Below are positions 7,227 through 59,171 of a DNA stretch of 59,212 nt, piece by piece. The position numbers and the translations under genes are program-made. The notes under the pieces are model-generated. The model saw only the letters and a program-made list of their open reading frames with translations, did no database searches and was not told the origin of the DNA. Each line of letters opens with the position of its first letter. Positions within the stretch are counted from its first letter, which is position 1. Origin of the DNA: Candidatus Nomurabacteria bacterium (GTDB lineage Bacteria; Patescibacteriota; Minisyncoccia; Phycocordibacterales; UBA9973); the NCBI GenBank assembly GCA_016186435.1, contig JACPLQ010000001.1:1-59212 (forward strand), in the 5' to 3' direction.

Positions 7227-7227
7227 C

Positions 7228-7485: not shown

Positions 7486-7541
7486 AATCTTTCACCTAAA
7501 AAATGTCAGGCTGGCAGTGCCACAGATGGCGCACCCTACAT

Positions 7542-7658
7542 TTCTTCGTTGCCAACGTGAACGTCGACGACAACGGCCAGCTCAACGTGAACGTCAACCC
7601 GCTCTCGAACGACAACGTCTGGAACGCCAAGTATCAGCAACGCATCGTGGTTCCGAAA
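7542..7658 (+). repeat. DGR template repeat (TR), non-coding
   Basis: Adenine-rich copy of VR. In the VR frame it reads ANVNVDDNGQLNVNVNPLSNDNVWNAKYQQRIVVPK (AAC-rich). The track ORF 7517-7759 across it is in another frame and is spurious. Confidence 0.9.
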
Positions 7659-7669
7659 CTATAATGTTT

Positions 7670-7696
7670 CTCCCCGGTTTACTTCGGGGAGTTTTT
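7670..7696. terminator. bidirectional terminator after TR (+) and avd (-)
   Basis: ctccccg-gtttactt-cggggag followed by ttttt. Confidence 0.65.
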
Positions 7697-8062: not shown

Positions 8063-8063
8063 T

Positions 8064-9107
8064 ATGAGCCGACTGATTCATACCTATCAGAATATCATAA
8101 GTGTGGAAAATTTGCTCCTTGCCTGGCAGGAGTTTCTGCGCGGCAAGAAGGGTAAGAAAGATATAATTTTATTTCAAACCAAGCTAATGGACAACATCCT
8201 ATCCCTGCATCAGGATTTAAAAAACAAAACCTACAAACATGGCGGGTATGTAGCTTTTAACATATCCGATCCCAAACCCAGAAATATCCACAAGGCAACA
8301 GTGCGCGATAGGCTGCTTCATCATGCGATTTATAGAATTTTGTATCCATATTTCGACACAAAATTCATTCATGGTTCATATTCTTGCAGAATAGGAAAGG
8401 GCACGCATAGAGCGATCAACCGACTGCGGGAATTTCACCGAAAAGTTTCCAAGAACAACACCAAAACCTGCTATGTTCTAAAGTGCGACATCCGAAAATT
8501 CTTTGCAAATATTGACCACAGAATATTAAAAAATATTTTAGCGCAACATATCAAAGATAAAGACGTCCTATGGCTCTTGGGACAGGTGATAAATAGCTTC
8601 TCTTCACAAAAACATATTTACGCCATGGCTGATATGTATAAAGGCCTTCCGCTCGGGAACTTAACTAGCCAGCTTTTAGTAAATATTTATATGAACGAAT
8701 TTGACCAGTATATGAAAAGGGCGCTCAAGATTAAATGTTATATTAGATACGCAGATGATTTTGTAATTTTGCAAAATGACAAAATAGAACTTGAAAATCT
8801 TTTATCTAAAATCTCTAATTTTCTCTGTGAGAGTCTAAAGCTCTCATTACATCCCGACAAAGTTTATATTAAAACTATAGCTTCGGGAGTGGATTTTCTC
8901 GGGTGGGTGAATTTTCCCAAACACAGAGTTTTGAGGACGAGTACAAAAAGGCGTGCATTAAAAAATTTGTTGAATAATCCAACAAAGCCAGTAATAGTCT
9001 CCTACTTGAGCCTTTTTAAACACGGAAATATGAAGAAGATTCAAGCCGGTGCGGGTTTAAGGTATAATGGGCAGAATGGCCGAGCTTTTGTTTACAGAAG
9101 AATATAA
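8064..9107 (+). CDS. DGR reverse transcriptase
   Basis: RT motifs including IRYADDFVIL (YxDD) and the DGR-typical GLPLGNLTSQLLVNIYMNEFD. Confidence 0.9.
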   Translation: MSRLIHTYQNIISVENLLLAWQEFLRGKKGKKDIILFQTKLMDNILSLHQDLKNKTYKHGGYVAFNISDPKPRNIHKATVRDRLLHHAIYRILYPYFDTKFIHGSYSCRIGKGTHRAINRLREFHRKVSKNNTKTCYVLKCDIRKFFANIDHRILKNILAQHIKDKDVLWLLGQVINSFSSQKHIYAMADMYKGLPLGNLTSQLLVNIYMNEFDQYMKRALKIKCYIRYADDFVILQNDKIELENLLSKISNFLCESLKLSLHPDKVYIKTIASGVDFLGWVNFPKHRVLRTSTKRRALKNLLNNPTKPVIVSYLSLFKHGNMKKIQAGAGLRYNGQNGRAFVYRRI

Positions 9108-12089: not shown

Positions 12090-15488
<3,399 letters not shown>

Positions 15489-19896: not shown

Positions 19897-22065
19897 ATGA
19901 GGCTCAAAACACTTCAACTGAACGGCTTCAAATCTTTCGCGCAAAAAACTGTTTTAGAGTTTGAAAGCCCGATCGTAGCCATCGTAGGACCCAACGGTAG
20001 CGGGAAGTCGAACGTGGTGGAAGCGGTGCGTTTTGTCTTGGGCGAGCAATCCATGAAGTCCATGCGCGGCAAGGGAGGCTCCGACCTTGTTTTTAAGGGT
20101 TCAAAAAATTTATCTAAAGGCACAAAAGCTTCCGTCACCATTTATTTCAACAATACCGATAAAATTTTTAAACTCACAAACGACGGAGGAGAAAATATAA
20201 ACTTAAATTATGACATCATTTCAATCTCCCGCGAAGTTTATTCTGACGCACTCAATAAATACATTTTAAACGGTACGGAAGTCCGGCTTAAGGACATACA
20301 TCACTTGCTCTCTTATGTGAACATCGGATCTTCCGGCCACCATATAATTTCCCAGGGCGAAGCCGACAGAATATTGAATGCGAGCTCTAAAGACAGGAAA
20401 GAAATGGTGGAAGACGCGCTAGGACTCAAAATTTATCAATACAAAATAAGGGAATCCGAAAGAAAACTGGAAAAAACGAATGAGAATATGAAAGAAGTGG
20501 GCATGCTCCGCCGGGAAAATGCTCCGCACCTTAACTTTTTGAAAAAGCAGGTAGAAAAATTTGAAAAGGTCAAAGAAATGCAGTCGGAGCTTGCTACCCT
20601 TTATCGGGAATACTTAAAAAAAGAAAGTATTTACCTAGAAGAAGAAAAAGAAAGTCTGAAAAAAGAACGAGAAAAAATTTCCGTAGAATTAAAAACTGTT
20701 AATGATAAAATTTCAGCGACAGACGAAAGCAATTCGGAAGGCAACCCGCGCCAAGGCGGGGCAAGTAAAAAAATAGATGAACTGCGAATTGCCGAGCAAA
20801 AGATAAATGCTTTACGCGGGAAAAAGGGCGAGCTGGAACGCAAGCTCGGGCGCATAGAAGGCATACTGGAAGCGAGAGTTGATAAACTAAAAGTTTCCGG
20901 CAAGTGTCCGCTTTGTGGAAGCGATATAGGCGACGAAGATGCGGGGCAGTTAGAGCGGAAGCATAATGAAGAAAAAGAACTTGCTGAATTAAAAACTTCT
21001 CAAGCAGACACCCTTGCCGAAATACAAAAAATAGAGACAGAAGAGAAAGAAATTAGCGGCGCAGTAGAAAAACTTAAACAAGAAATAAACAGAGAAATGG
21101 AAGCATTGCGTGATCTAGAGCGGGAGAAATTTACTTTTAAAGTCAGACAGCAGGAACTTTCTAGCGCGCTTGAGCTCATAGTTATCAAAGAAGACAGCTT
21201 GAGAAGCAGGAGAGAATTGTTTGAGAATGAAATAAATGAAGGCACAGCCCTTGTCGGCGCTGAAATTTTGGCTTATAAGAATTATCAGGGAAGCGTGGAG
21301 GAACAAATTATTCCACAAGATGAGTTAAAGAAAAAAATAGAGCGCATAAAGATAAAACTTGAAGATGCAGGTCTTGGCAATAGCGCGGAGCTAATGCAAG
21401 AATACAATACTGTGTCAGAACGCGATCGATTTTTAGCCAAAGAGCTTGAAGACATTGAAAAAAGCATTGACTCTCTCAAAAAACTTATTGCCGACCTCAA
21501 AGAAAAAATAGACATAGAGTTTCAAGAAGGAGTAAAAAAAATAAATGTTGAATTTCAGGAATTTTTCGCGATTCTATTCGGAGGCGGACATGCGTCGCTT
21601 TCAGTAGTGATGGAGATAAAACGCAGGAGAAAGATACAAGAGGATGAAGAACCCGCCGACGCCGAAGGCTTTGGCGAGGCGAGCGAGACAGAGGAGGAGG
21701 CAGAACCGGAGCAGGGGATAGAAATAAATGTTTCTTTGCCTCACAAGAAAGTAAAAGAATTGCATGCATTTTCCGGAGGAGAACGATCGCTCACCTCTAT
21801 CGCGCTTTTGTTTGCAATGTCGCAGGTAAACCCGCCGCCATTTTTGGTGCTGGATGAGACAGATGCCGCGCTGGATGAAGCGAATTCCAGAAAATATGGA
21901 GATATGCTGGAAAAACTATCTAAAGCGTCCCAGCTTATAGTCGTCACTCACAACAGAGAGACTATGTCCCGAGCGGGAGTGCTTTACGGCGTCACTATTG
22001 GTTCCGACGGCGCGTCCAAACTCCTGTCCGTCAAATTCGACGAAGCCACCCAGATTGCGAAATAG
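19897..22065 (+). CDS. smc: SMC-family ATPase, short (722 aa), with no recognisable hinge and a CPLC motif at the coiled-coil midpoint
   Basis: SMC head motifs: LNGFKSFA, GPNGSGKSN, QGEADRIL, LSGGERSLTSIALLFA and FLVLDETDAALD. The rnc-smc synteny is conserved. Cys337-Pro-Leu-Cys340 is encoded at 20905-20916. Confidence 0.8.
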   Translation: MRLKTLQLNGFKSFAQKTVLEFESPIVAIVGPNGSGKSNVVEAVRFVLGEQSMKSMRGKGGSDLVFKGSKNLSKGTKASVTIYFNNTDKIFKLTNDGGENINLNYDIISISREVYSDALNKYILNGTEVRLKDIHHLLSYVNIGSSGHHIISQGEADRILNASSKDRKEMVEDALGLKIYQYKIRESERKLEKTNENMKEVGMLRRENAPHLNFLKKQVEKFEKVKEMQSELATLYREYLKKESIYLEEEKESLKKEREKISVELKTVNDKISATDESNSEGNPRQGGASKKIDELRIAEQKINALRGKKGELERKLGRIEGILEARVDKLKVSGKCPLCGSDIGDEDAGQLERKHNEEKELAELKTSQADTLAEIQKIETEEKEISGAVEKLKQEINREMEALRDLEREKFTFKVRQQELSSALELIVIKEDSLRSRRELFENEINEGTALVGAEILAYKNYQGSVEEQIIPQDELKKKIERIKIKLEDAGLGNSAELMQEYNTVSERDRFLAKELEDIEKSIDSLKKLIADLKEKIDIEFQEGVKKINVEFQEFFAILFGGGHASLSVVMEIKRRRKIQEDEEPADAEGFGEASETEEEAEPEQGIEINVSLPHKKVKELHAFSGGERSLTSIALLFAMSQVNPPPFLVLDETDAALDEANSRKYGDMLEKLSKASQLIVVTHNRETMSRAGVLYGVTIGSDGASKLLSVKFDEATQIAK

Positions 22066-22125: not shown

Positions 22126-24030
22126 TTAGGGAGTTTTCATCTCTTGAAACTTCACTTTCTCTTCTTTTGCGGGAATTATTTTTTCTAGCTGGAACACGGA
22201 ATTTAATTGCGTATTATTTTTTCTTACAGACATTGAGCCATCCTTGCCTAATTTAATCTGAAGAAGCATGCCTTTCGTGGTTTCTTTGCTCCAAGACTGA
22301 TCAAAGACAAAATTTCCGAGCGAGTAGGCGATAAAACCATTTTTATAAACTTCAGTATCTTGGATTACATGCGGATGATGACCGATGACTATCTTAGCTC
22401 CATTGTCTACTGCTTTATGCGCTAAATATTCCTGCCGCGTATTGTGAACTGTCTTATATTCATCTCCGAAGTGAAAAGAAACTACTAGATAATCCACTTG
22501 CTTAGCCGCATTTTTTATTATTTCGTCAAAACGGGGATCGCTGGCGAGCAGTAAGCCGGCAGTTTCACTTTTTGCTTCCATCCAGTTCGGTCCAACGTCG
22601 GAGAATCCCAAGAAGCCGATTTTTAGCCCATATTTTTCAATAATAACCGGAGCTTCGGCCTCTGTTTCAGTATTTCCGCCGCCGGTATAAAGTATTTCAT
22701 TTTCTTTCAGGCGTGAGAGCGTGTCTGCATATGCGCTTCGTCCCCAGTCGCCGACATGATTGTTTGCCATTGACACGATGCTTACTCCGGCGCCCTTCAT
22801 CGCGGGAATAACGCTCGGATCCATCCTAAAAGAATATAAATTTCGCATATCTGCGCCTTTGTCGGACGCGGCGCCTTCCAGATTTACGAAAGCTATATCG
22901 GAATTTTTAAATATTTCCAGTTTTGAAAAAATTGCGGAATAATCATTGCCGAAATTTTTTACGACTGAATTTTTCACCCCGCGGGCAAGCATAATGTCGC
23001 CGCCGAAGGCGAGAGTTACAAAGTCCGGCTCGCGGATGTCCGGCACACCGACTCTTTCTTCCACCCAGTTTGTGATTGCTCCGAGCGCGCCGCCATAATA
23101 AACATTTTTCTTCAGGTAATTTACGATGCTTTCCACATCTTTCTTGCGGTCTGCGCTCTGGAGGAGAGTGATAGCAACAGGGCGTTCACTTTTTTCTGCC
23201 AATGAACCTAAGTGCAGAGAGAAAAGAGAGACGACTGTCTGCCTAGCAGCGTCTGTGTATCCGCTTTTACCCCCGATGTATCCGTCTTTCCCCAAAAATT
23301 GGCTGATGTTAGACCAATTATGTTTTTTATTTGAAAAGCTTCTGTTGGTCGTAATTCTTAGGAGTTCCGGATGTTCTTGGGCTAGATAACCGGTGAGCTT
23401 GAATATGTCTCCTGTTGTTGATTTATTATTTGGAGATAATCCGCTCGGATCTTCAAAGTGAGTGTCCTCCATTTTTAACTTTTCTGCCGTTAGGTTCATC
23501 TTTGAGATGAAGCTATCCCGGCCGAAATGTTCCGCAATTACTTCGGCTGCATCGTTGCTAGACTCCAGAAGGAGGGGATATAAAAGATCTGATATTTTTA
23601 CCTTTTCTCCCGGGCGCAATTCGCCATTTTGCCCGTACGTCGCAAGCGCCCGCTTGCTTACTGTTGCCACTTCGTCCGGCTTTGCAAGCTCGCTTGCCAC
23701 CAAAGCAGTCATTAGTTTAGAAACTGATGCTATTGGGAAAATATTCTCCTGATTTTTTGAAAGTATTACTTCGCCAGTGTGAAGGTCGCCGACAATATAT
23801 GCTTTTGCGGAAACTTTCGGGCCTCCGACAAGATCTTTATTCGTATAAAAGTATTGAGGTTTTTTTGCTTCAGACGGAATGAGCTGGACCACTCTGGCTT
23901 GAGAGTCTTTTGTGAAGAGCGTTTTTATTCCCGTATCAATGAGAGATGATAAAGAATAAGTAAAAAATATGCCGACAAGAATCGGAAATACTGACCACAA
24001 CAAGAGCTTAGTTTTATTGCGAGACCTCAT
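22126..24030 (-). CDS. fusion of a serine-type D-Ala-D-Ala carboxypeptidase (PBP5-like) and a CapA/PGA-type metallophosphatase domain
   Basis: N-terminal TM segment, SxxK (IASVSKLMT) and SSND (= SxN, in LLESSNDAAEV). The C-terminal half has FGGDIMLARGV...VSMANNHVGDWG...IVIGHHPHVIQ, typical of CapA. Confidence 0.7.
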   Translation of the reverse strand: MRSRNKTKLLLWSVFPILVGIFFTYSLSSLIDTGIKTLFTKDSQARVVQLIPSEAKKPQYFYTNKDLVGGPKVSAKAYIVGDLHTGEVILSKNQENIFPIASVSKLMTALVASELAKPDEVATVSKRALATYGQNGELRPGEKVKISDLLYPLLLESSNDAAEVIAEHFGRDSFISKMNLTAEKLKMEDTHFEDPSGLSPNNKSTTGDIFKLTGYLAQEHPELLRITTNRSFSNKKHNWSNISQFLGKDGYIGGKSGYTDAARQTVVSLFSLHLGSLAEKSERPVAITLLQSADRKKDVESIVNYLKKNVYYGGALGAITNWVEERVGVPDIREPDFVTLAFGGDIMLARGVKNSVVKNFGNDYSAIFSKLEIFKNSDIAFVNLEGAASDKGADMRNLYSFRMDPSVIPAMKGAGVSIVSMANNHVGDWGRSAYADTLSRLKENEILYTGGGNTETEAEAPVIIEKYGLKIGFLGFSDVGPNWMEAKSETAGLLLASDPRFDEIIKNAAKQVDYLVVSFHFGDEYKTVHNTRQEYLAHKAVDNGAKIVIGHHPHVIQDTEVYKNGFIAYSLGNFVFDQSWSKETTKGMLLQIKLGKDGSMSVRKNNTQLNSVFQLEKIIPAKEEKVKFQEMKTP

Positions 24031-26126
24031 ACTAACACATAATCTATTGTCTTTCGCTCCAAGTCAACCCCTTTTACTTTTATTTTTACCTTGTCGCCGA
24101 GGCGATATTTTTTTCCCTGCCTACCGGCAGGCAGGTTCTTTTTCTGCCCCATCATTTCAAGCTTCTTTTCATTGAAAACATAAAAATCATCCTGCATATC
24201 CCGCATTCGCACGAGCCCTTCGCATTTTGTTTCCACTTCTTCCACATATATGCCCCATTCGGTCATTCCGCTGATTACTCCATGGAAAGTTTCTCCTAAG
24301 CGCGCGGACATATACTCCACTTGTTTGTATTTTATAGAAGCGCGCTCGGCATCACTCGCTCGTTTTTCCTGCTCGGAAGCTATGAGCGACATTTTTTCGT
24401 ATTCAAGCAGTTTATTCCCGACGCTTGCGGTCGGGACCCCGACTTTGGTCGGGGCTTTATTCTTTGCCAAGTAGTCGCCAAGAAGCCTGTGTATTATTAT
24501 GTCGGGATAGCGCCGGATAGGGGAAGTGAAGTGCGTATAGAAATTAAAAGCAAGCCCATAGTGTCCGATATTTTTTGTGGAATAAATTGCTTTAGCCATG
24601 GAGCGAATAACTGCTCTGTGCACGGTATCCCGCATAGTTGTATTCGCATGCTTGCTATCAAAACTTTCTAAGAGCTTATTTATTTCATGGCTTGGAATTA
24701 TGCCGTCCCTCAGGCTGACCTTGTGCCCCAAGCTTCGCAGAAAAAAAGCCAAATCTGCCATTTTTTCTTTTGAAGGCAGGTCATGCACTCGGTATATTGA
24801 AACTCCTTCTTCTGCTCTGCCTTTTATTTTTTTAGGCGACAGAATTTCCGCCACTTTTTTATTCGCAAGAAGCATGAATTCTTCTATGAGCCGGTTTGAA
24901 TCTCCGCGCTCTTTTTTTATGACTTTTAATGGCGCGCCATTTTTATCCAGCACGAATTTTACTTCTTCCTGGTCAAGCGATATTGCGCCTTTGGCAAATC
25001 TTTCTTTGGTAAGTTTTTTTGCGAGATTATTTAAAACAGAAAGTTCTCTGTGAAGGGGAGCATTTGATTTTTTTATGGACTCTTCGGCTTCTTCATAAGA
25101 AAATCTTTTTCTGGAATGTATCACTGTGCGCCCGTACCATTCTGACTTCACGTTTGCATTTTTATCCAGCACAAATATGGCGCTCATTGTCAGGCGGTCT
25201 TTGTTTGGCACCAGACTGCATAAATCATTTGAAAGGACTTCAGGGAGCATGGGTATTGTCCTGTCTACCAAGTACACCGACATGCCGCGCTCTCGGGCTT
25301 CTACGTCTAAAGCGCTGTTTACTTTTACATAATGCGATACGTCGGCGATATGAATGCCTATTTCATAAAGTTCTTCCTCACCCCTTCGCCCCTCTCCATT
25401 TTTTCTTAAATGGAGAGGGGTTTGGGAGAGGTCTGCTGGCCTAAGAATTTTAAAAGATATAGCGTCGTCAAAATCTTTTGCGTCAGCCGGATCTATTGTG
25501 AATGTGAGTGTGCGCCTCATATCCCGACGGCCGTCATAATCTGCATCTTTTATTCCAGCCTGTTTTATTTTTCTCGCTTCTTCTTCAACTTTCTTGGGAA
25601 GCTCGGCATCAAAGCCTTTTTCCATGGCTATGGCGCGCATCTCTGTGTCGTTGTCTCCCGGAAGCCCTAAAATTTTTACTACTTTGCCTTCGGGCGCTTT
25701 GCGGGAATCCAGCCATGAAACTATTTCCACGAAAACTTTTTCTCCTACTTTTGCGCCGTGTACCATATTCTGGGGAATCAGTATATCCGTATACATTTTT
25801 GTATCGTCGGGCTTTAGGAAAAATAATTTACTTGCCCCGTCCTTGGCGGGGTTTTCTGTTTCTAGTATTCCGGCAAAGGCTTTTTTGGCGCGGGAAAGTA
25901 TTTTTGAAACTTCTCCGGTGGTGCGTCCGTGGCTTTTGGCGTGCAGAGTAACCTCCACCAAATCTCCGTGGAGGGCAGTGTTTAGGTGCTTGAAATCAAT
26001 TTCTATGTCGTCCTTGTGGGTAAGAGTCTTTACATAGCCGGTTCCTTTAGCCGTAATAGAGATAATGCCTTCAAGCTTATTGGAGTGCTTTTTCTGGTGT
26101 TTTTTCATCCCGTTAGAGATTTTCAT
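24027..26126 (-). CDS. rnr: ribonuclease R
   Basis: RNB domain (FTIDPADAKDFDDAISF, HIADVSHYV, HYGLAFNFYTHFTSPIRRYPD) and a C-terminal S1 domain. It carries two palindromic inserts. Confidence 0.9.
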   Translation of the reverse strand: MKISNGMKKHQKKHSNKLEGIISITAKGTGYVKTLTHKDDIEIDFKHLNTALHGDLVEVTLHAKSHGRTTGEVSKILSRAKKAFAGILETENPAKDGASKLFFLKPDDTKMYTDILIPQNMVHGAKVGEKVFVEIVSWLDSRKAPEGKVVKILGLPGDNDTEMRAIAMEKGFDAELPKKVEEEARKIKQAGIKDADYDGRRDMRRTLTFTIDPADAKDFDDAISFKILRPADLSQTPLHLRKNGEGRRGEEELYEIGIHIADVSHYVKVNSALDVEARERGMSVYLVDRTIPMLPEVLSNDLCSLVPNKDRLTMSAIFVLDKNANVKSEWYGRTVIHSRKRFSYEEAEESIKKSNAPLHRELSVLNNLAKKLTKERFAKGAISLDQEEVKFVLDKNGAPLKVIKKERGDSNRLIEEFMLLANKKVAEILSPKKIKGRAEEGVSIYRVHDLPSKEKMADLAFFLRSLGHKVSLRDGIIPSHEINKLLESFDSKHANTTMRDTVHRAVIRSMAKAIYSTKNIGHYGLAFNFYTHFTSPIRRYPDIIIHRLLGDYLAKNKAPTKVGVPTASVGNKLLEYEKMSLIASEQEKRASDAERASIKYKQVEYMSARLGETFHGVISGMTEWGIYVEEVETKCEGLVRMRDMQDDFYVFNEKKLEMMGQKKNLPAGRQGKKYRLGDKVKIKVKGVDLERKTIDYVLV
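24116..24135. repeat. near-perfect 20-nt palindrome cctgcctaccggcaggcagg inside the rnr coding sequence
   Basis: It encodes LPAGRQG. Related copies lie at 15230-15246 and 53626-53645. Confidence 0.8.
25376..25420. repeat. GC-rich palindromic element inside the rnr coding sequence
   Basis: cctcacccc...cccctctccattt-tttctt-aaatggagagggg. The 13-bp arms are identical to the trmD copy. It encodes TPLHLRKNGEGRRGEE. Confidence 0.85.
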
Positions 26127-26216
26127 AAATTAGGTCAATAACTTCTTTCATATTTTTAGCGTGTATTCCGTTATCTCTAACGGGACAGGCCCTTATATTA
26201 TAGCATAAAATAGATA

Positions 26217-26245
26217 TTGACAATAGCACCAAAGTGTGCTATACT
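26217..26245 (+). promoter_or_regulatory. consensus sigma-70 promoter (TTGACA, 17 nt, TGcTATACT) for the GC-rich lipoprotein gene
   Basis: Read directly from the sequence. The SD aaggag lies 8 nt before the ATG. Confidence 0.6.
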
Positions 26246-26270
26246 TGCATTGAAAAGGAGAAATTGACAA

Positions 26271-26738
26271 ATGAAGAATCTGTTCGCGGTTTTCGTCGCG
26301 GTTTTTGCTTTAATGGTGGTCGGTTGCGCGACGACAGTCGTCTCGTCGCCCAAGTCGACGGTGAACACCGTCGACGGCCCCCTGGAGGCGAAAGGTGACC
26401 TCAATGCCGTCGTCAAGAGGACGACGACGACCACGACAACCGACGCCAATGGCATCGTAGTCGGCACCACCACCGAAGTGGTGGAGGAACAGGCGGCCCG
26501 CAACGCCTACGATGCCGAGCACGAGCTCGACATGCGCCGCGAGGACCGCAAGGAAGCGGTCGGCGTGGCGCGGGCGCAGAACCCGGCGCCGGTAATCGTG
26601 GTTCGGGGGAGTACGTATTATCGGACGGTGGGTAGTTCGTACCACCGACCCCCGAGACGAAACTATCGGACGGGCCCTCCGCGGACTGAACGCCCTGTCG
26701 GCCGTAACACGGTCGGCGGGAGCAAGTCCAAGCGTTAG
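26271..26738 (+). CDS. GC-rich putative lipoprotein with a Thr-run and an Arg/Pro-rich tail
   Basis: Signal peptide with a lipobox-like LMVVGC. GC content is far above its flanks, and the antisense ORFs in the track are GC artefacts. Confidence 0.6.
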   Translation: MKNLFAVFVAVFALMVVGCATTVVSSPKSTVNTVDGPLEAKGDLNAVVKRTTTTTTTDANGIVVGTTTEVVEEQAARNAYDAEHELDMRREDRKEAVGVARAQNPAPVIVVRGSTYYRTVGSSYHRPPRRNYRTGPPRTERPVGRNTVGGSKSKR

Positions 26739-26785
26739 CCGCTTGGGCAAGAGGGAAGCCCTCTATAAAAATGACAATCCATCGA

Positions 26786-26823
26786 CAGCGTGTTTCTCGC
26801 AAGAGAAACACGCTGTTTCTCTT
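26786..26823 (+). terminator. rho-independent terminator of the lipoprotein cassette
   Basis: 13-bp stem cagcgtgtttctc/gagaaacacgctg with loop gcaa, followed by tttctcttt. Confidence 0.7.
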
Positions 26824-26914
26824 TATGCTCAATTTGCTTTTTTTCTTAAATTATAATAAACTCTTGCTACCTGTCCCGTACTAAATTAAGAACAGCACCA
26901 AAAGCGGAAAGTTT

Positions 26915-27136
26915 TTGGAAATCTTAGGAACGTATAATCCGAAAGCCAAAGATGATGCGCAGAAAAAAAATCTGAATGTCGACAGAATAAAATATTGGAT
27001 ATCAAAAGGCGCAAAGCCTTCGGACACGATGCACAATTTTTTGGTACACGACAAAATCATAGAAGGCAAAAAGATAAACGTCCTTCCAAAGAAAAAACCG
27101 ACAATGAAAAGAAAGGAATTGAAAGCAAAAAAGTAA
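26915..27136 (+). CDS. rpsP: 30S ribosomal protein S16, apparently 5'-truncated
   Basis: (KNSTKSGKF)LEILGTYNP...DRIKYWISKGAKPSDTMHNFL matches the S16 C-terminal two thirds. There is an in-frame TAA at 26882-26884, and no MLxIRLxRxG N-terminus is found in any frame upstream. Confidence 0.6.
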   Translation: MEILGTYNPKAKDDAQKKNLNVDRIKYWISKGAKPSDTMHNFLVHDKIIEGKKINVLPKKKPTMKRKELKAKK

Positions 27137-27235
27137 GCTTGCCCGCCTATGGAGGGTTTGATACAATTACAGTTAATGCAGTATATAAAGTCGGAACGAC
27201 TGCGCATATTATAAAAGTTAATTTTTATTAAAAAC

Positions 27236-27592
27236 ATGGAAGAAGCAGACAAGATGTTTTTGGAATATGTCGTTAAAGCTCTGGTAGATAATCCAAATGA
27301 CGTAAAGATAGAGCGAACTGTGGACGAAATGGGCGTGCTTATTACTCTCACCGTAAATCCCGCCGATATGGGGAAGATTATCGGAAGGATGGGCAATACC
27401 GCCAAGGCTATCCGCACATTGCTCCGCATCATCGGCATGAAGAACAACGCCCGCGTGAATCTGAAGATCAATGAGCCGGCCGGCAGCATGAGGCACGAAG
27501 GCGGAATGACTTCTACGGGGAGCGGCATGGGGCAAGCGCCGTCAACCCTAAAGACTGTAGACGAGGCAATGGATGAGCTCAAGGGAATATAA
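27236..27592 (+). CDS. KH-domain RNA-binding protein (YlqC/KhpA family) with a GC-rich C-terminal tail
   Basis: LVDNPNDVKIE...MGKIIGRMGNTAKAIRTLL, in the conserved rpsP-KH-trmD order. Confidence 0.8.
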   Translation: MEEADKMFLEYVVKALVDNPNDVKIERTVDEMGVLITLTVNPADMGKIIGRMGNTAKAIRTLLRIIGMKNNARVNLKINEPAGSMRHEGGMTSTGSGMGQAPSTLKTVDEAMDELKGI

Positions 27593-28316
27593 ATTGCGTT
27601 TTCATGTCATTACAATTTTTCCAGATATTTTCGATTCATATTTGAATGAATCTGTTATCGGGCGCGGGATAAAAAATAAATTGATAGACGTAAAATTTTA
27701 TAATCCCCGCGATTTTATCAAGGCCCCAAAAAATAACTATAAACCGGTAGATGACAAGCCGTATGGCGGAGGACCTGGTATGGTCATGCGCGCCGAGCCG
27801 ATTTTAAAAGCAGTAGAAGCAGCTCTTAAAGCAGCTCAAAAGCCTCACCCCCGCCCCCTCTCCATTTTGAAAAAAAATGGAGAGGGGTGGATGCGAAGCA
27901 GACGGGGTGAGGGAATTAAAATAATTCTTTTTTCTCCGTCCGGCAAGAAATTTGATACAGCCTATGCTAAAAAGTCCGCAAAAAAATATACGGACATCAT
28001 TATGATATCCGGCAGATATGAAGGCATAGATGCGCGAGTGCAAAAAATTCTAAAAGCAGAAGAAATTTCCATAGGGGATTATGTGCTTACCGGCGGCGAA
28101 CTACCAGCTATGATTTTAATAGATTCTATTTCTCGTCAAATACAGGGCATATTGGGCAAATATGAATCACTGGAAGAAGAAAGAGTTTCCAGTAGCGAAG
28201 TGTATACTCGTCCGGAAATCTTAAAATATCGCGGCAAAAATTACAGAGTTCCAAAAGTCCTGCTTTCCGGAAACCATAAAAAAATAGATGAGTGGAAAAA
28301 TCAAACTAAGAAATAA
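27573..28316 (+). CDS. trmD: tRNA (guanine37-N1)-methyltransferase
   Basis: FHVITIFPDIF, DDKPYGGGPGMVM, SGRYEGIDARV, IGDYVLTGGELPAM. Confidence 0.95.
   Translation: MSSREYKLRFHVITIFPDIFDSYLNESVIGRGIKNKLIDVKFYNPRDFIKAPKNNYKPVDDKPYGGGPGMVMRAEPILKAVEAALKAAQKPHPRPLSILKKNGEGWMRSRRGEGIKIILFSPSGKKFDTAYAKKSAKKYTDIIMISGRYEGIDARVQKILKAEEISIGDYVLTGGELPAMILIDSISRQIQGILGKYESLEEERVSSSEVYTRPEILKYRGKNYRVPKVLLSGNHKKIDEWKNQTKK
27843..27912. repeat. nested GC-rich palindromic element inserted in frame in trmD
   Basis: Outer arms cctcacccc / ggggtgagg. Inner arms cccctctccatttt-gaaaa-aaaatggagagggg. It encodes KPHPRPLSILKKNGEGWMRSRRGEG, in a loop that is short in E. coli TrmD. Confidence 0.85.
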
Positions 28317-35485: not shown

Positions 35486-35623
35486 GGTGTTTGCAAAAGG
35501 GGGAGCGGAATGAAGTATCGCACTACGAACATTCTGTGGTCTGGGTAACAGCAAAAAATAGTGTGCGTGAGGACTGACCCGTCAAAGACTAAGCAGTTTC
35601 GTCTGTTTCCCCTTTTGCAAACA
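35486..35623 (+). ncRNA. unassigned structured element closed by a perfect 17-bp inverted repeat
   Basis: ggtgtttgcaaaagggg (35486-35502) pairs with ccccttttgcaaacacc (35607-35623). The 104 nt between the arms have no plausible ORF. Confidence 0.3.
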
Positions 35624-35632
35624 CCAGTATTC

Positions 35633-36046
35633 ATGCCAAAAGATTTTGACAAGTGGAATAATCTCAAGAAAATTTTCGAGAAAGAAAGTCGGGAACTTTT
35701 TGCGCATCCGAGAGAGGTCTGGTGGTGCTCGCTCGGAGTAAATTTAGGAGCGGAAATAGACGGTAAAAACGACAGCTTTGAGCGACCTGTTTTAATTATA
35801 AAGGTTTATAGTAGAGAAACGATGTTTGTATTACCTATTACAAGTAAAGAAAAAAATGATAAGTTTCACTGTAAGATTTTTGTAAAAATAAAAAATATTA
35901 AAACCGGTGAATACGATGAAAAGGCCGTATGGGTAAAGTTAACTCAGGCGCGCGTTATTAGTAATAAAAGACTTTTAAGAAAAGTTGATTTCATAGACAT
36001 CGAAGAATTCGATAAAATTATGGCAGTTTTTAAGAATAGTGTATAA
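35633..36046 (+). CDS. solitary PemK/MazF-like toxin-fold protein
   Basis: FDKWNNLKK...REVWWCSLGVNLGAEIDGKNDSFERPVLII is typical of a MazF-like subfamily. No adjacent antitoxin ORF was found. The track ORF starts at 35561 inside the inverted repeat. Confidence 0.6.
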   Translation: MPKDFDKWNNLKKIFEKESRELFAHPREVWWCSLGVNLGAEIDGKNDSFERPVLIIKVYSRETMFVLPITSKEKNDKFHCKIFVKIKNIKTGEYDEKAVWVKLTQARVISNKRLLRKVDFIDIEEFDKIMAVFKNSV

Positions 36047-36852: not shown

Positions 36853-38637
36853 ATGAACTCTCCCGTAGAAAAAATTAAGGAGAGGCTAGGAATCGAAGAA
36901 GTAATCTCTTCTTACATAAAATTGGAACGGGCGGGGAAAAACCTCAAGGCCCGATGCCCGTTTCATAACGAAAAGACGCCGTCTTTTTTCATTTCACCAG
37001 ACAGAGGAACATACTATTGCTTTGGTTGCGCCGCTTCTGGGGATATTTTTACTTTCGTGGAAGAATTTGAAGGGCTGGACTTCAAGGGTGCGCTAAAATT
37101 ACTCGCTGACAGGGCAGGAGTACAGCTTGAGCCTTATAGCAGACAGGCAAAAGAGAGTAAGAGTGAAAAAGAAAAGTTATATGAAGTTATGGAAGAGGCA
37201 ACAAGTTATTTTGAAAATAATTTAAAAAGTAATGAAGAGGCATTAGATTATTTAAAATCTCGCGGGCTAAATGAAAAAAGCATAAAAGATTTCAGAATTG
37301 GATACGCGATTCTTGACTGGCGATTACTCTATGATTATTTAAAGTCTAAAAATTTTACTGATAAAGAAATAGAGTTTGCGGGGCTGGCAAAAAAACCCGA
37401 AGACAAAAATAAAGCCATGTATGATAGATTCCGCGGACGTATAATGTTCCCGATTGCCGACTCTAGCGGGCGCATTGTCGCTTTTTCCGGCAGAATTTTT
37501 GTGGACGATGAAAAGTCGGCTAAGTATCTAAACAGTCCCGAGACTCCAATCTTCAGCAAGAATGCCGTGCTTTATGGTATAGATAAGGCCAAAGAATCCA
37601 TCAGAAAAAATAATTTTTCTATTCTAGTAGAAGGGCAGACGGATTTAATTTTATCTCATCAGGCTGGGTATAGAAATACTGTTGCAACATCGGGGACGGC
37701 GCTTTCAGATTCTACCATATCTAAAAAAAATGTAGTTTCTAATCTAGGGTTAGTCCGCCGTCTTTCGCCAAACATCGTGCTAGGGTTTGACGCGGATAAA
37801 GCAGGAGCAAGCGCTACAATTCGGGCGGGAAAGATTGCTCTTTCTTTAGGGATGGATGTAAAAGTGGTGAATATGCCGGAGGGGATAGATCCGGCAGATT
37901 TAATCGGGAAAAGCGGCGCAGATAAATGGAAAGAAGCTATAAAAAATTCCAAGCACATTATAGAATTTCTTTTAGTAAAAGTCCTGAAAAATGGGGAAAG
38001 TGATGAGCGAAAGGTCCGCTTAGACTCGGCGAGGCAGGCAGGAAGAGAAATAAAAGAAAAAATACTTCCATTTGTAAATGCGCTTGAAAGTTCTATAGAG
38101 AAAATGCATTTTGTAAAAAAAATAAGCGAAGAATCTGATATACCTATAAGCGCCCTGGAAGAAGATTTAAAGAAAATTGCGAAAGAGGAGCAATTTGAAA
38201 GAGAAGAAATACAGGAAGCCGAGGAGGCGCAGGTTAAAAAGCGCAGAAAAGACAATATAGAGAGTGATCTTTTTGGGATAGCCCTTTGGCAAAAGACCCT
38301 AAGAGACCCTGTAATAGACTTTAAAATAATTTTTGAAAAACTGGGGGAAGCCTCTAAAAAATATGAAAATACCAAAGAAGATTTAATTTATCAGGCCGAA
38401 ATATCTTATGAAAATGAGAATAATTTGAAAAAGAATGTTGCAGAAATGTTTTCCAGCCTTGAGGAAGAAAGAATAAACGAAGAATTGGTAAAAAAGATGG
38501 CAGAGCTACGTCATAATAAGAATAAAGAATTAGAAATAGGAATTATAAAAGAAATAGCCAGTCTGACTAAGAAAAAAGAAGATATTAAAAATGGTCGCTT
38601 TCCGCCAAAGGCGGATCAGCCTCAGGCTGAAAAGTAG
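36853..38637 (+). CDS. dnaG: DNA primase
   Basis: Zinc ribbon [21 protein letters not shown] and TOPRIM EGQTDLI...GFDADKAG. Confidence 0.93.
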
Positions 38638-49041: not shown

Positions 49042-49819
49042 AAGCAAGAGAAGAAAAAGGAATTGGATTGTCTTAGCTGGCGTTCTGGTTTTCATAATTT
49101 TTTTCTATTTTAGAGCTGGAATCTGGAGCGGGCTTTCTTATGCAAGCGGAGAAATTTTTCGGCCTATTTTGGCTTTAGGAAATAATGCTGGAGTAAAATT
49201 TAAAAATTTCAGCGCGTATTTTTCTTCTAAAAGATCTCTTGAAAATGAAAATGAAATTCTGCTTTCAAAGCTGGCAGACGCAGAATCCAGAATGCTTAAT
49301 TATGATTTACTTAATGCAGAAAACGAAAGTTTGAAAGAAATTTTAGGACGCCAAAAAGAGGATGCTAAAATGGTGCTAGGAGCGATTTTATCCAAGCCAA
49401 ATCAGAGCGCTTATGACACTTTGCTTATAGATGCCGGAGAAAATGAAGGAATAAAAACAGGAGATATTGTTTTTGCCCTCGGGGATATTCCCGTTGGACG
49501 GGTGGGAGCCGTCACTCCAAACTCTTCAAAAATAATTTTATTTTCAAGCGCGGGAGAAAAAACTCAGGCGCTAATTTCTGGAAATGAGATTTTTTATGAA
49601 TTAGTCGGGCGCGGCGGAGGAAATTTTGAAATGGTTTTGCCGAGAGATATTGCGCTTACCAAAGGCGACAAGGCAGTGATGCCGGGGCTTTATCCATACG
49701 TGCTTGCAGAAGTTGAAACTACAATTTCTGATCCGCGGGATCCCTTTACTAAAGCGCTTTTTGTAAGTCCGGTAAATATACAGGAGCTTAAATTTGTGGA
49801 AGTTGCGACCTCTCCCTAG
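49022..49819 (+). CDS. mreC: rod-shape protein MreC
   Basis: Position after mreB, N-terminal TM plus coiled coil, and a G..V....G.VG.V motif. Confidence 0.8.
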   Translation: MSYLQDKSKRRKRNWIVLAGVLVFIIFFYFRAGIWSGLSYASGEIFRPILALGNNAGVKFKNFSAYFSSKRSLENENEILLSKLADAESRMLNYDLLNAENESLKEILGRQKEDAKMVLGAILSKPNQSAYDTLLIDAGENEGIKTGDIVFALGDIPVGRVGAVTPNSSKIILFSSAGEKTQALISGNEIFYELVGRGGGNFEMVLPRDIALTKGDKAVMPGLYPYVLAEVETTISDPRDPFTKALFVSPVNIQELKFVEVATSP

Positions 49820-51225
<1,406 letters not shown>

Positions 51226-53340: not shown

Positions 53341-53373
53341 CCCCCTCACCAATTTAGAAAATTGGTGAGGGGG
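53341..53373. repeat. hairpin ccccctcaccaattt-aga-aaattggtgaggggg within rnpB
   Basis: 15-bp arms, nearly identical to the second rnpB hairpin. Confidence 0.85.
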
Positions 53374-53485: not shown

Positions 53486-53513
53486 CCTCCCCAATTTGTA
53501 AAAATTGGGGAGG
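53486..53513. repeat. hairpin cctccccaattt-gtaa-aaattggggagg within rnpB
   Basis: 12-bp arms. Confidence 0.85.
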
Positions 53514-58953: not shown

Positions 58954-59024
58954 TGGACTCACCGGGAATCGGACCCGGGACTCGTCATTGCGAACGACGC
59001 GTAATGCCACTTTACTATGAGCCC
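58954..59024 (-). tRNA. tRNA-Ala(CGC) with G3:U70; T loop TCCGATT (C55); no encoded CCA
   Basis: Acceptor GGGCTCA/TGAGTCC, D arm GTAA-AGTGGCA-TTAC, anticodon arm CGTCG-TTCGCAA-TGACG, T arm CCGGG-TCCGATT-CCCGG. Confidence 0.65.
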
Positions 59025-59047
59025 CTCACATGCGCGCATGTGAGGGG
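59022..59047. repeat. perfect 26-nt palindrome cccctcacatgcgcgcatgtgagggg abutting the tRNA-Ala(CGC) 5' end
   Basis: It is flanked by the direct repeat ctatgagccc (59015-59024 and 59048-59057). Confidence 0.85.
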
Positions 59048-59171
59048 CTATGAGCCCGCCACATGGCAACAGTTAGTATATTTTATTTTAAGGAGAAAGG
59101 CAAAACAAAAAACGGCCAGATTTTAGTTGCAATGTAGTTAAAATAATATAGAATATCTGAGTTCAACACTC

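What the first reader, a model, noticed from the sequence alone, without database searches (positions are those of the whole stretch)
25376..27912. Family of GC-rich palindromic elements inserted IN FRAME into essential genes (Rickettsia-palindromic-element-like)
The same element core appears inside rnr (25389-25420; cccctctccattt-loop-aaatggagagggg, preceded by cctcacccc). It also appears inside trmD (27843-27912; cctcacccc...cccctctccatttt-gaaaa-aaaatggagagggg...ggggtgagg). The resulting peptides are PLHLRKNGEGRRGEE and PLSILKKNGEGWMRSRRGEG. These fall at positions where E. coli RNase R and TrmD have short loops. Related copies occur in five other places: the mreC-tgt spacer (49820-49859), inside tgt (50531-50610), inside gyrB (15197-15246), twice in RNase P RNA, and at a tRNA 5' end (59022-59047). 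That is six or more insertions in five essential genes within 59 kb. It implies a mobile or recombinogenic hairpin element whose insertions are tolerated as surface loops. Selfish palindromic DNA inside coding genes is established for Rickettsia RPEs; I do not know it as a described feature of this kind of genome.
Basis: partly seen in the sequence, partly recalled or inferred. Interest (0 to 1): 0.75.

Follow-up and report, generated by a model that had tools for sequence, protein, structure and literature searches.

The report
Triplex-type palindromes inserted inside essential genes
A tiny-genome CPR bacterium carries copies of a known pan-bacterial three-armed DNA hairpin repeat (BoxC/PIT/"TM") and of other palindromes inserted in frame into housekeeping genes and RNase P RNA, and the same repeat turns out to bracket a small DUF559 endonuclease gene across many phyla, which suggests what may move it.

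Summary
These inserts are absent from solved homologues and from the closest relatives. A third copy spans the mreC stop codon and the mreC-tgt spacer.

It is the known BoxC/PIT/"TM" intrastrand-triplex motif (CCCCTCTCC-loop-GGAGAGGGG-n-GGGGTGAGG), reported as strictly intergenic in E. coli, and it occurs in more than 15 phyla.

The copies claimed in tgt, gyrB, RNase P RNA and next to the tRNA are other palindrome families or only loosely related hairpins. They behave the same way. The TrmD, RNase R, Tgt and RNase P sites are hotspots that are empty in some close relatives and hold unrelated palindromes in others. In Paceibacteria-like contigs, TM copies sit in frame in RNase R, TrmD, TopA, PurL and MnmA, always in the same reading frame.

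One result is new. In 12 DUF559 loci chosen by protein alone, and in 14 of 15 DUF559 ORFs found in TM-selected loci, three-armed repeats lie next to the small DUF559 (Vsr-like) endonuclease gene, often on both sides. The trmD insert nearly matches one end of such a Nomurabacteria unit.

My best reading is that these are solo, non-autonomous copies surviving in permissive loops. Mobilisation by DUF559 is inferred, not shown.

The parts
24027..26126 (-). rnr (RNase R), host gene
   Evidence: Pfam RNB, CSD2, OB_RNB, S1; 1.5e-109 to B. subtilis RNase R, PDB 8cdu.
25376..25439 (-). TM/BoxC-type element, four-arm version, in frame in rnr. On the gene strand it reads CCTCTCCC-aaa-CCCCTCTCCATTT-aagaaa-AAATGGAGAGGGG-cgaa-GGGGTGAGG and encodes PADLSQTPLHLRKNGEGRRGE.
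   Evidence: Clean 63-bp insertion relative to L002 and L001. Pattern match. 21-aa gap against PDB RNase R. The same element occupies the same site in L212.
27573..28316 (+). trmD, host gene
   Evidence: Pfam tRNA_m1G_MT; 1.5e-47 to PDB 1p9p.
27843..27912 (+). TM element with both outer arms and a small spacer hairpin, in frame in trmD: CCTCACCCC-cgc-CCCCTCTCCATTTT-gaaaa-AAAATGGAGAGGGG-tggatgcgaagcagac-GGGGTGAGG. It encodes PHPRPLSILKKNGEGWMRSRRGEG.
   Evidence: The site is empty in 79 of 120 relatives. In the AlphaFold model, residues 89-114 are unstructured with pLDDT below 50. The arms and the 16-nt spacer hairpin are identical to the right end of the Nomurabacteria DUF559 unit in L248/L189.
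49809..49859 (+). TM element overlapping the mreC stop codon and filling the mreC-tgt spacer: CCTCTCCC-tag-CCCTCTCCTT-atc-AAGGAGAGGG-gaaagaaa-GGGGTGAGG.
   Evidence: The spacer is 0-8 nt, so the element is absent, in relatives L244 and L246.
50527..50613 (+). Family E compound palindrome in frame in tgt. An outer stem AATTCTCCTCTTGAGG/CCTCAAGAGGGGAAT encloses three small hairpins. It encodes [28 protein letters not shown].
   Evidence: Insert relative to PDB TGT. The site is empty in about 20 of 120 relatives and holds at least 8 other classes. It is about 75% identical in DNA to the L003 rnr insert. The same peptide class occurs at the TrmD hotspot in P0018, P0081 and P0096.
15197..15246 (+). 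Two GC-rich hairpins in gyrB: cctccccctt-agt-aagggagagg, and gcctgcc-ggac-gggcagg of the LPAGRQG type. They lie inside an insert relative to solved GyrB.
   Evidence: The same CTGCCTGCC-GGTA-GGCAGG hairpin occurs at two RNase R sites. Polymorphism in GyrB relatives was not tested.
53341..53373 (-). Perfect 15-bp-arm hairpin (CCCCCTCACCAATTT/AAATTGGTGAGGGGG) at the P15-P17 position of RNase P RNA.
   Evidence: The closest relative L244 has unrelated sequence at this position. No third arm is present.
53486..53513 (-). Perfect 12-bp-arm hairpin (CCTCCCCAATTT/AAATTGGGGAGG) inserted between P5/P7 and P8 of RNase P RNA.
   Evidence: Insertion relative to the Rfam model. L244 and L245 carry different hairpins at the same junction.
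59020..59049 (.). Perfect palindrome agcccctcacatgcg/cgcatgtgaggggct overlapping the 5' end of tRNA-Ala (58953-59024, minus strand).
   Evidence: Family membership is uncertain.
24414..24443 (-). In-frame GC-rich double hairpin in rnr (VGVPTASVGN; ...cccgaccgcaagcgtcggga).
   Evidence: Absent in L001 and L003, present in L002. A related hairpin sits at a different rnr site in L003 and matches TrmD class F.
24114..24134 (-). In-frame hairpin ctgcctgcc-ggta-ggcaggg in rnr (LPAGRQG).
   Evidence: Absent in L001. A second copy occurs at another rnr site in L002.
25833..25853 (-). In-frame GC-rich hairpin in rnr (NPAKDGA).
   Evidence: Absent in L001 and L002; GC 0.71.
20746..20766 (+). In-frame GC-rich hairpin in smc (PRQGGAS).
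   Evidence: Window-specific; absent in L001, L002 and L003; GC 0.76.
38599..38625 (+). In-frame double hairpin near the dnaG C-terminus (FPPKADQPQ).
   Evidence: Absent in L002.
51004..51039 (+). Sporadic in-frame insert in tgt ([12 protein letters not shown]).
   Evidence: Present in only 16 of 120 Tgt relatives. Falls in a strongly folding window, 50993-51052.
14017..14058 (+). Perfect 19-bp-arm hairpin in gyrB ([13 protein letters not shown]).
   Evidence: -36.5 kcal/mol. Lies in a variable loop relative to PDB GyrB. Insertion status is unproven.

Best explanation
The palindromes in rnr, in trmD and at the mreC-tgt junction are solo copies of the BoxC/PIT/"TM" element.

**Anatomy.** The element is a small structured DNA repeat made of:
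- a homopyrimidine arm (CCCCTCTCC), a loop, and a homopurine arm (GGAGAGGGG);
- a G/T-rich third arm (GGGGTGAGG) that could form purine-motif triplets with the hairpin;
- in some copies, a mirror-repeat C-rich arm (CCTCTCCCC) upstream, or a small variable hairpin in the spacer.

**Proposed origin.** In many bacteria, including Nomurabacteria and Paceibacteria, inverted copies of this repeat bracket a ~0.35-kb gene for a DUF559 (Vsr-like, PD-(D/E)XK) endonuclease, forming a unit of about 0.5 kb. I propose that the solo copies are non-autonomous derivatives of that unit. The analogy is MITEs with their IS elements, or REP/REPINs with RAYT transposases.

**Proposed dynamics.** New copies arise throughout the genome by a structure-dependent, nuclease- or replication-associated process that leaves no target-site duplication. 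In this gene-dense CPR genome the only copies that persist are those that land in:
- short spacers;
- permissive surface loops of proteins, and then only in the one frame that yields a hydrophilic Pro/Gly/Glu/Arg-rich peptide (...NGEG..RGE);
- peripheral helices of structured RNAs.

Other palindrome families follow the same lifestyle. These include family E in tgt and the small CTGCC...GGCAG and CCCGA...TCGGG hairpins. As a result, a few permissive sites become hotspots that are repeatedly filled, emptied or replaced.

**Shown:** identity with TM; insertion status; polymorphism among relatives; recurrence in different genes; constancy of the reading frame; physical association of TM with DUF559.

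**Inferred:** that DUF559 is the mobilising enzyme; the insertion chemistry; that the inserts are translated and merely tolerated.
For: **Identity with TM.**
- The same three arms and spacing as the 23 E. coli TM_ECO copies.

**Insertion and turnover.**
- The RNase R site is empty in the 90%-identical L002 but filled by the same element in the 75%-identical L212, and filled by a different palindrome in L003.
- The TrmD site is empty in 79 of 120 relatives. The 7 TM carriers fall in 5 groups on the tree, and the window's nearest neighbours carry class B, class B and no insert.
- Tgt and RNase P RNA behave the same way.

**Movement between genes.**
- The same TM subfamily sits in frame in RNase R, TrmD, TopA, PurL and MnmA. 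A copy in what looks like a Dus-type tRNA-dihydrouridine synthase is in reverse orientation.
- Family E is about 75% identical in DNA between the window's tgt and L003's rnr.

**Reading frame.** Five different host genes read the element in the same one of five stop-free frames (and direct reading of the sequence).

**DUF559 link.**
- In TM-selected loci, 12 of 13 DUF559 ORFs lie within 140 nt of a TM hairpin and at least 8 are flanked on both sides. In viral loci the figure is 2 of 2.
- In loci chosen by protein only: E. coli ycjD sits next to published TM_ECO #9; 3 of 3 CPR contexts are flanked; 8 of 8 plasmid loci carry lineage-specific three-arm repeats in their flanks.
- A sequence-agnostic detector finds 23 motifs in the flanks of these 12 genes, against 0 in shuffled flanks and a background of at most 0.084 per kb.
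- Pfam assigns PF04480 at E = 1e-27 to 1e-33.
- The Nomurabacteria unit's right end shares its arms and its 16-nt spacer hairpin exactly with the window's trmD insert.
- Whole TM-DUF559-TM units are inserted in frame in two large ORFs. By their sequences these look like a methionyl-tRNA synthetase and a restriction-modification-type enzyme.
Against: - No DUF559 gene and no transposase lies in the 59-kb window. The rest of this genome could not be read.
- There is no target-site duplication and no defined insertion footprint.
- DUF559 has no demonstrated transposase or homing activity. Holder et al. found no association of TM with transposons, phages or plasmids in E. coli, and no triplex in vivo.
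- Adjacency could instead mean that TM repeats accumulate around DUF559 genes, or that DUF559 targets TM.
- The E. coli ycjD/TM region is polymorphic, but as part of a larger island swap. It is not a clean unit gain or loss.
- Several DUF559 loci are flanked on one side only within 260 nt.
- The TrmD tree rests on about 215 aa, so the event counts are only approximate.
- No partner protein was found for family E or the small hairpins.
- Translation of the inserts is inferred from intact reading frames only.
Confidence: 0.65

Rival explanations
1. Enzyme-free spread. The hairpins are copied between sites by replication-fork template switching, or by microhomology-mediated repair at structure-prone DNA. 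They are lost by slippage. DUF559 is a passenger, or an independent selfish or repair nuclease that merely sits among or targets such repeats.
For: There is no target-site duplication, and only an AGG microhomology at the rnr junction. Holder et al. link TM to local instability and slippage-type deletions. Clean empty sites in close relatives are compatible with precise slippage loss. No DUF559 gene lies in the window.
Against: This does not explain why DUF559 genes in more than 10 lineages are bracketed by inverted three-arm repeats whose sequence changes with lineage. Nor does it explain whole TM-DUF559-TM units inserted in frame in unrelated genes.
Confidence: 0.2
2. The hairpins are selected in place for a host function. 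Candidates include mRNA stabilisers or processing sites, transcription or translation pause sites, protein-binding sites, or useful surface peptides. Their similarity would reflect functional constraint rather than selfish spread.
For: The reading frame and peptide (NGEG..RGE) are constant across five host genes. Spacer hairpins keep their pairing through compensatory changes. REP elements are known to have been co-opted for host functions (general knowledge).
Against: The patchy presence among close relatives, and the replacement by unrelated palindromes at the same site, argue against a site-specific function. The same DNA occurs in spacers, in RNA genes and on viral contigs. An earlier study found no promoter or terminator activity for PIT/TM (as cited).
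Confidence: 0.1
3. The segments are ordinary fast-evolving linker loops. Their palindromic look and shared motifs arise by chance or from compositional bias.
For: The sites lie in loops that vary in length across bacteria.
Against: The three-arm pattern occurs 4 times against 0 in 100 shuffles. The 13-14-nt arms plus the third arm are identical in unrelated genes and in a spacer. Hairpins are enriched 13-fold. Family E shows DNA-level homology between tgt and rnr.
Confidence: 0.02
4. These are classical REP/REPIN elements moved by a RAYT (IS200/IS605-like Y1 transposase), or MITEs of a conventional IS element.
For: They are small, palindromic and multi-copy, and they sometimes occur as inverted doublets.
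Against: There is no GTAG or CGTC tag. They are not extragenic. No RAYT or IS transposase lies in the window or next to the copies examined. There is no target-site duplication.
Confidence: 0.03

Closest known systems
BoxC / PIT / TM_ECO intrastrand-triplex motif (Holder et al. 2015, NAR 43:10126, PMC4666352; earlier work by Hoyne et al. and Bachellier et al. as cited there)
   Same: The three arms and their order are the same (CCCTCTCC(C)-loop-GGGAGAGGG-3 nt-GGGTGAGGG). The element is multi-copy and found in hundreds of genomes. Inverted doublets occur. It is associated with local genomic variability. No known transposase is linked to it.
   Different: - In E. coli it is 'always located intergenically'. 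Here and in related CPR genomes it is translated in frame inside housekeeping genes.
- The stems are extended by A/T pairs. Some copies have an extra mirror-repeat C-rich arm or a spacer hairpin.
- The link to DUF559 (ycjD) is not mentioned in that paper.
Rickettsia palindromic elements (RPEs; Ogata et al. 2000, 2002, as summarised in PMC10969869)
   Same: Selfish-looking palindromic repeats are inserted in frame into unrelated housekeeping genes and RNA genes of a reduced genome. They encode a conserved peptide and are tolerated at permissive sites. There are several families, and no known transposase.
   Different: RPEs are about 100-150 bp, were described from Rickettsia (and are presumably unrelated in sequence; not compared here), and have no described triplex-type third arm. 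The elements here are 21-90 bp, one family is pan-bacterial, and a candidate protein partner exists.
REP/REPIN-RAYT systems (Bertels & Rainey 2011, PMC3116915)
   Same: Short hairpin repeats are paired with a single-copy, domesticated-looking nuclease gene flanked by its own repeats. Repeat sequence co-varies with the lineage of the protein. Solo and doublet copies are dispersed around the genome.
   Different: The partner is a PD-(D/E)XK Vsr-like DUF559 protein, not an HUH Y1 transposase. The repeats have three arms and no GTAG or CGTC tag. They are not restricted to extragenic space.
MITEs and small mobile repeats that enter coding or RNA genes. Examples from memory, not checked here: cyanobacterial small dispersed repeats (Elhai et al. 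2008), yeast mitochondrial GC clusters, and 'byp' elements of Magnusiomyces mitochondria.
   Same: GC-rich hairpin elements invade genes of AT-rich compact genomes. Nesting and reuse of sites occur.
   Different: There are no terminal inverted repeats plus target-site duplication of the usual MITE kind. The inserts are always open and a multiple of 3 in length, so translation is likelier than ribosomal bypass or splicing.
Homing endonuclease genes and inteins
   Same: Whole TM-DUF559-TM units sit in frame inside large ORFs that look like MetRS and a restriction-modification-type enzyme, like a nuclease gene embedded in a host gene.
   Different: There are no splicing motifs. The nuclease belongs to a different family. 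The solo repeats lack any ORF.

Membership tests
BoxC/PIT/TM intrastrand-triplex motif | Homopyrimidine arm CCCTCTCC(C) and complementary homopurine arm (G)GGAGAGGG forming a hairpin | tested here: met
   rnr, trmD and spacer copies, compared with E. coli Table 1.
BoxC/PIT/TM intrastrand-triplex motif | G/T-rich third arm GGGGTGAGG(G) shortly 3' of the purine arm, able to form G.G, A.A and T.A triplets antiparallel to it | tested here: met
   The spacer is 4 nt in rnr and 8 nt in the mreC-tgt copy. An agnostic triplet-rule detector calls both. The trmD copy has a 16-nt spacer holding a small hairpin, a variant also seen in other phyla.
BoxC/PIT/TM intrastrand-triplex motif | Multi-copy and over-represented within a genome | tested here: inconclusive
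   There are 3 loci in 59 kb against 0 expected, but only this contig of the genome is available.
BoxC/PIT/TM intrastrand-triplex motif | Intergenic location (as reported for E. coli) | tested here: not met
   Two of the three window copies are translated inside genes. The same is true in L212, L225, L191, L161, L252 and L054. This is a described property of the E. coli copies rather than a structural definition.
BoxC/PIT/TM intrastrand-triplex motif | Forms a stable triplex as single-stranded DNA in vitro | not testable with these tools
   Needs CD or NMR spectroscopy, as in Holder et al..
Rickettsia palindromic elements | About 100-150-bp palindromic repeat homologous to one of the RPE families | tested here: not met
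   The inserts are 21-90 bp. RPE size is taken from PMC10969869. Direct sequence comparison with RPEs was not done.
Rickettsia palindromic elements | In-frame insertion into unrelated housekeeping ORFs, giving a conserved peptide | tested here: met
REP/REPIN-RAYT | 20-40-bp imperfect palindrome with a GTAG or CGTC tag, extragenic | tested here: not met
   No tag is present in the copies, and the copies are intragenic.
REP/REPIN-RAYT | Cognate RAYT gene flanked by the repeats | tested here: inconclusive
   None lies in the window or in the flanks examined. Whole genomes were not searched.
MITE | Terminal inverted repeats plus target-site duplication, with a parent IS element encoding a transposase | tested here: not met
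   No target-site duplication at the rnr or trmD junctions. The only associated gene is DUF559, which is not a known transposase.
Proposed TM-DUF559 unit (not an established family) | DUF559 ORF bracketed by three-arm repeats, inverted in most cases | tested here: met
   It is met in relatives and other phyla. No such unit lies in this window.

The most novel reading that the evidence does not exclude
BoxC/PIT/TM-type three-armed repeats may be the ends and the orphaned derivatives of a previously unrecognised class of minimal mobile or selfish elements. This class would be pan-bacterial, and its only gene would be a DUF559 (Vsr-like PD-(D/E)XK) endonuclease, with repeat and protein co-evolving as REPINs do with RAYTs. 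In CPR/Paceibacteria these and other palindromes would continually remodel surface loops of core proteins and helices of RNase P RNA. That would give a function to the DUF559 family, including E. coli YcjD, and a source for a 25-year-old orphan repeat.
Probability: 0.4. Interest if true: 0.85.

Novelty: new variant of a known kind. Interest (0 to 1): 0.75.

Why it matters
1. The finding extends the 'selfish palindromes inside protein-coding genes' phenomenon, so far a Rickettsia curiosity, to the Candidate Phyla Radiation. It shows that there are many families and that specific loops act as recurrent hotspots. This matters for annotating, aligning and building phylogenies from CPR proteins and RNAs. 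For example, RNase P RNA in close relatives falls below the Rfam threshold because of such inserts.

2. It shows that the enigmatic BoxC/PIT/TM triplex repeat can be translated.

3. It provides a concrete, testable candidate for what generates and moves that repeat, the DUF559 endonuclease. This turns two long-standing unknowns, the origin of TM/BoxC and the function of DUF559/YcjD, into one experiment that can be done in E. coli.

Tried and rejected
- **Target-site duplication.** I compared filled and empty RNase R and TrmD sites at the nucleotide level. There is none, only an AGG microhomology.
- **Mobilising gene in the window.** Pfam scans of about 30 ORFs found no transposase, RAYT or DUF559. 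They found only a DGR reverse transcriptase with Avd, which I regard as unrelated.
- **Rfam.** No family matches the elements even at E <= 1.
- **RNase P RNA in relatives.** The gathering threshold missed it, so I had to search at an E-value threshold.
- **E. coli population test of ycjD+TM mobility.** The region is polymorphic in about 38% of genomes, but as a larger island replacement, so the test is uninformative.
- **Copy number per genome.** They give taxonomic breadth but no per-genome counts.
- **Ribosomal bypass or intron-like removal.** Rejected, because every insert is open and a multiple of 3 in length within an intact gene.
- **Assembly artefact.** Rejected, because the same inserts occur in independent assemblies.
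- **DNA-uptake-sequence idea.** I considered this for the short ATTACGAAT repeat (TrmD class B) but did not pursue it.
- **Literature.** The Elhai 2008 paper on small dispersed repeats is not held. Two Pfam calls failed on wrong reading frames.

Full report
**1. What is in the sequence**

The window is an entire 59,212-bp NCBI contig of a 'Candidatus Nomurabacteria bacterium' (CPR/Patescibacteria), as shown by the TrmD and Tgt homologue searches.

At the reported coordinates rnr (24027-26126, minus strand) contains a perfect hairpin at 25389-25420 with 13-bp arms, preceded by cctcacccc. trmD (27573-28316, plus strand) contains a hairpin at 27855-27887 with 14-bp arms, nested between cctcacccc and ggggtgagg.

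Read on the gene strand, the rnr copy is CCTCTCCC-aaa-CCCCTCTCCATTT-aagaaa-AAATGGAGAGGGG-cgaa-GGGGTGAGG. The mreC-tgt spacer copy (49809-49859) has the same four arms, and the mreC stop codon lies between the first two.

The full three-arm pattern occurs 4 times in the window and 0 times in 100 shuffles. GC-rich perfect hairpins are enriched 13-fold. Strongly folding 48-nt windows are enriched 7.6-fold.

**2. These are insertions, and they turn over**

Against solved structures both peptides are ~20-aa gaps. The tgt and gyrB segments are also inserts relative to solved homologues.

Syntenic loci from three relatives give nucleotide-level comparisons.
- The rnr element is a clean 63-bp addition. 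It is absent from L002, whose RNase R is 90% identical, and from L001.
- It is present at the same site in the more distant L212 (75% identical).
- In L003 the site holds an unrelated 81-bp palindrome.

At the TrmD site 79 of 120 relatives have no insert. The rest carry at least seven unrelated peptide classes. On a TrmD tree built without the insert, at least 36 state changes are needed, and the seven TM carriers fall in five groups. The window's nearest neighbours carry class B, class B and nothing. This tree rests on about 215 aa, so the counts are approximate.

The Tgt site is empty in about 20 of 120 relatives, including the two closest, and holds at least eight classes in the others. About ten further sporadic insertion sites exist in Tgt.

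An alignment of 11 orthologous genes shows that many lineage-specific indels are 21-45-bp GC-rich stem-loops, with GC of 0.6-0.8 against a genome average of 0.42. The same hairpins recur at different sites. Examples are CTGCCTGCC-GGTA-GGCAGG and CCCGAYCGCAAGCRTCGGGA.

RNase P RNA behaves in the same way. At P3, at the P5/P7-P8 junction, at P15-17 and near the 3' end, the three related genomes carry different hairpins or none. These inserts push the relatives' RNAs below the Rfam gathering score.

An AlphaFold model of TrmD places the insert (residues 89-114) as an unstructured, low-confidence loop between helix 74-88 and strand 115-126.

**3. More than one family**

The tgt insert is a different element, which I call family E. 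It has an outer stem AATTCYCCTCTTGAGG/CCTCAAGAGGRGAATT enclosing three small hairpins. It is about 75% identical in DNA to the L003 rnr insert, and its peptide recurs at the TrmD hotspot. So family E too has moved between at least three genes.

The gyrB hairpins, the two RNase P hairpins and the tRNA-Ala leader palindrome share C-rich/G-rich arms but lack the full architecture. I treat their membership as unproven.

**4. What the rnr/trmD element is**

Even the A/T-extended hairpin subfamily occurs on metagenome contigs with GC from 0.3 to 0.7, and the motif is common on viral contigs.

A full-text search with the arm sequences found Holder et al. 2015 (PMC4666352). This is the BoxC/PIT/'TM_ECO' intrastrand-triplex motif. 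According to that paper it has 23 copies in E. coli K-12, is 'always located intergenically', occurs in more than 260 genomes, forms a purine-motif triplex as single-stranded DNA in vitro but was not detected as a triplex in vivo, is associated with local instability, and has no known mobilising agent.

The arms here obey the same triplet rules. In the rnr-type copies the extra upstream arm is an exact mirror repeat of the pyrimidine arm, so it is a potential pyrimidine-motif third strand (direct reading of the sequence).

**5. Intragenic lifestyle in CPR**

On low-GC contigs most copies are in spacers. The same subfamily also lies deep inside RNase R (L212), TrmD (L225), topoisomerase I (L191), FGAM synthase PurL (L161) and an MnmA-like tRNA thiolase (L252). 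In all five it is read in the same orientation and frame (...NGEG(K/R)..RGE...). A reverse-oriented copy lies inside what looks from its sequence like a tRNA-dihydrouridine synthase in another Nomurabacteria genome (L054).

Five of the six frames through the arms are free of stop codons. Constancy of one frame across five host genes is therefore unlikely by chance, roughly (1/5)^4. It points to selection on the encoded peptide or on orientation.

Searches of the held literature found no description of such elements in CPR bacteria.

**6. A candidate partner**

In L093 two TM copies bracket a DUF559 domain inserted in a large ORF.
- **TM-selected loci.** Testing all 247 loci fetched up to that point, 12 of 13 DUF559 ORFs lie within 140 nt of a TM hairpin and at least 8 are flanked on both sides. 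Pfam confirms PF04480.
- **Independent viral set.** Both DUF559 ORFs found are flanked on both sides.
- **Loci chosen by protein alone.**
  - E. coli ycjD has the published TM_ECO #9 about 170 nt past its stop codon, and a TM arm encodes its C-terminus.
  - Three CPR genomic contexts all show CCTCACCCC-CCCCTCTCC-loop-GGCGAGGGG upstream and the inverse downstream.
  - Eight diverse plasmid or chromid loci all carry three-arm repeats in their flanks, with arm sequences that differ by lineage.
- **Quantification.** A sequence-agnostic triplex-architecture detector finds 23 motifs in the flanks of these 12 genes. It finds 0 in shuffled flanks, and the background elsewhere is at most 0.084 per kb.

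The right end of the Nomurabacteria unit shares its arms and its 16-nt spacer hairpin exactly with the window's trmD insert.

The closest homologues of that DUF559 protein are all from Patescibacteria. Many sit on contigs of 0.5-2 kb, as expected for repeats that break assemblies.

Holder et al. do not mention DUF559 or ycjD. The 25 held papers that mention DUF559 do so only in passing. The only solved homologue is PDB 3HRL, deposited as 'Endonuclease-Like Protein'.

**7. Interpretation**

The best-supported reading is that the rnr, trmD and spacer palindromes are solo, non-autonomous copies of a TM element whose full form carries a DUF559 endonuclease gene. These and other palindrome families insert widely. 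They survive only in spacers, in permissive protein loops in one frame, and in peripheral RNA helices.

The insertion chemistry is unknown. There is no target-site duplication, no DUF559 gene in this contig, and no biochemical evidence of any kind.

The main rival is enzyme-free template switching and slippage, with DUF559 as a bystander. In-place functional selection of the hairpins may also contribute.

**8. Verdict**

I rate the novelty as a new variant of a known kind. It comes with a potentially important new lead, the TM-DUF559 association, which deserves direct testing.

Noticed in passing
window 6583-9107 (VR 7060-7173, TR 7542-7655, bAvd 7679-8062 minus strand, RT 8064-9107): A complete-looking diversity-generating retroelement. 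It has a bAvd-like gene and a reverse transcriptase, plus a 114-nt template/variable repeat pair in which all 13 differences fall at template adenines. The variable repeat lies at the 3' end of ORF 6583-7200, which has no Pfam match. A GC-rich hairpin follows at 7227-7248.
   Followed up: partly
window 53256-53598 (-); L244 17440-17782; L245 13293-13641: RNase P RNA only just passes the Rfam gathering score here (105.5 against 100). In two close relatives it falls below it (91.6 and 76.6 bits) because of lineage-specific hairpin insertions. Standard annotation would therefore miss rnpB in these genomes.
   Followed up: partly
window 45087-45118; TrmD class B in L002 10244-10290 and in P0006, P0011, P0058, P0097, P0117: A short AT-rich repeat, ATTACGAAT, occurs as an inverted pair between the EF-Ts-like and S2-like genes in the window. 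It also occurs as direct repeats translated as TNYELRITNK at the TrmD hotspot in relatives. Its nature is unknown (another mobile repeat, a protein-binding site or an uptake-type sequence).
   Followed up: no
L009 about 2100-2650; L093 about 4540-5030: Whole TM-DUF559-TM units are inserted in frame in two large ORFs: a 913-aa ORF in a betaproteobacterial MAG that looks like methionyl-tRNA synthetase, and a 1188-aa ORF in a Bacteroidota MAG that looks like a restriction-modification-type enzyme. Both host identities are read from the sequences and were not confirmed by a search. The arrangement resembles an embedded homing-endonuclease gene without splicing motifs.
   Followed up: partly
L381 (Sphingomonas parapaucimobilis plasmid NZ_CP155753.1, 112589-112999): A DUF559 gene flanked by CCCTCCCC/GGGGAGGG/GGGGTGGGG repeats sits exactly between sufB and sufC, inside an otherwise conserved operon.
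   Followed up: no
window 2883-3938, 6123-6446, 35561-36046, 9067-11961: Also present are a Fic/DOC protein, two PemK/MazF-type toxins, and a UvrD-helicase/PD-(D/E)XK nuclease fusion (AddA-like).
   Followed up: no
Spacer between the purine arm and the third arm of TM copies (window 27888-27903; L159, L171, L203, L043, L121 and others): This spacer often holds a small hairpin whose stem sequence differs between copies while pairing is kept. Examples are tggatgcgaagcagac, tggctgcccgaaggcagac, tggctcgcttgcgagac and tgtccgacaggacg. This suggests either selection on structure or nested insertion of mini-hairpins.
   Followed up: partly
L248 4258-4716: A LAGLIDADG homing-endonuclease ORF lies about 1 kb from the Nomurabacteria DUF559 unit. 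I did not check whether it sits in an rRNA intron.
   Followed up: no
L376 (Neisseria gonorrhoeae record NZ_CP119142.1, 49166-50304): Here the DUF559 gene is flanked by direct, not inverted, repeats of about 100 nt. Each contains a CTCTCTCCC/GGGAGAGAG/GAGAGAGGG three-arm motif. This arrangement differs from the other lineages.
   Followed up: no
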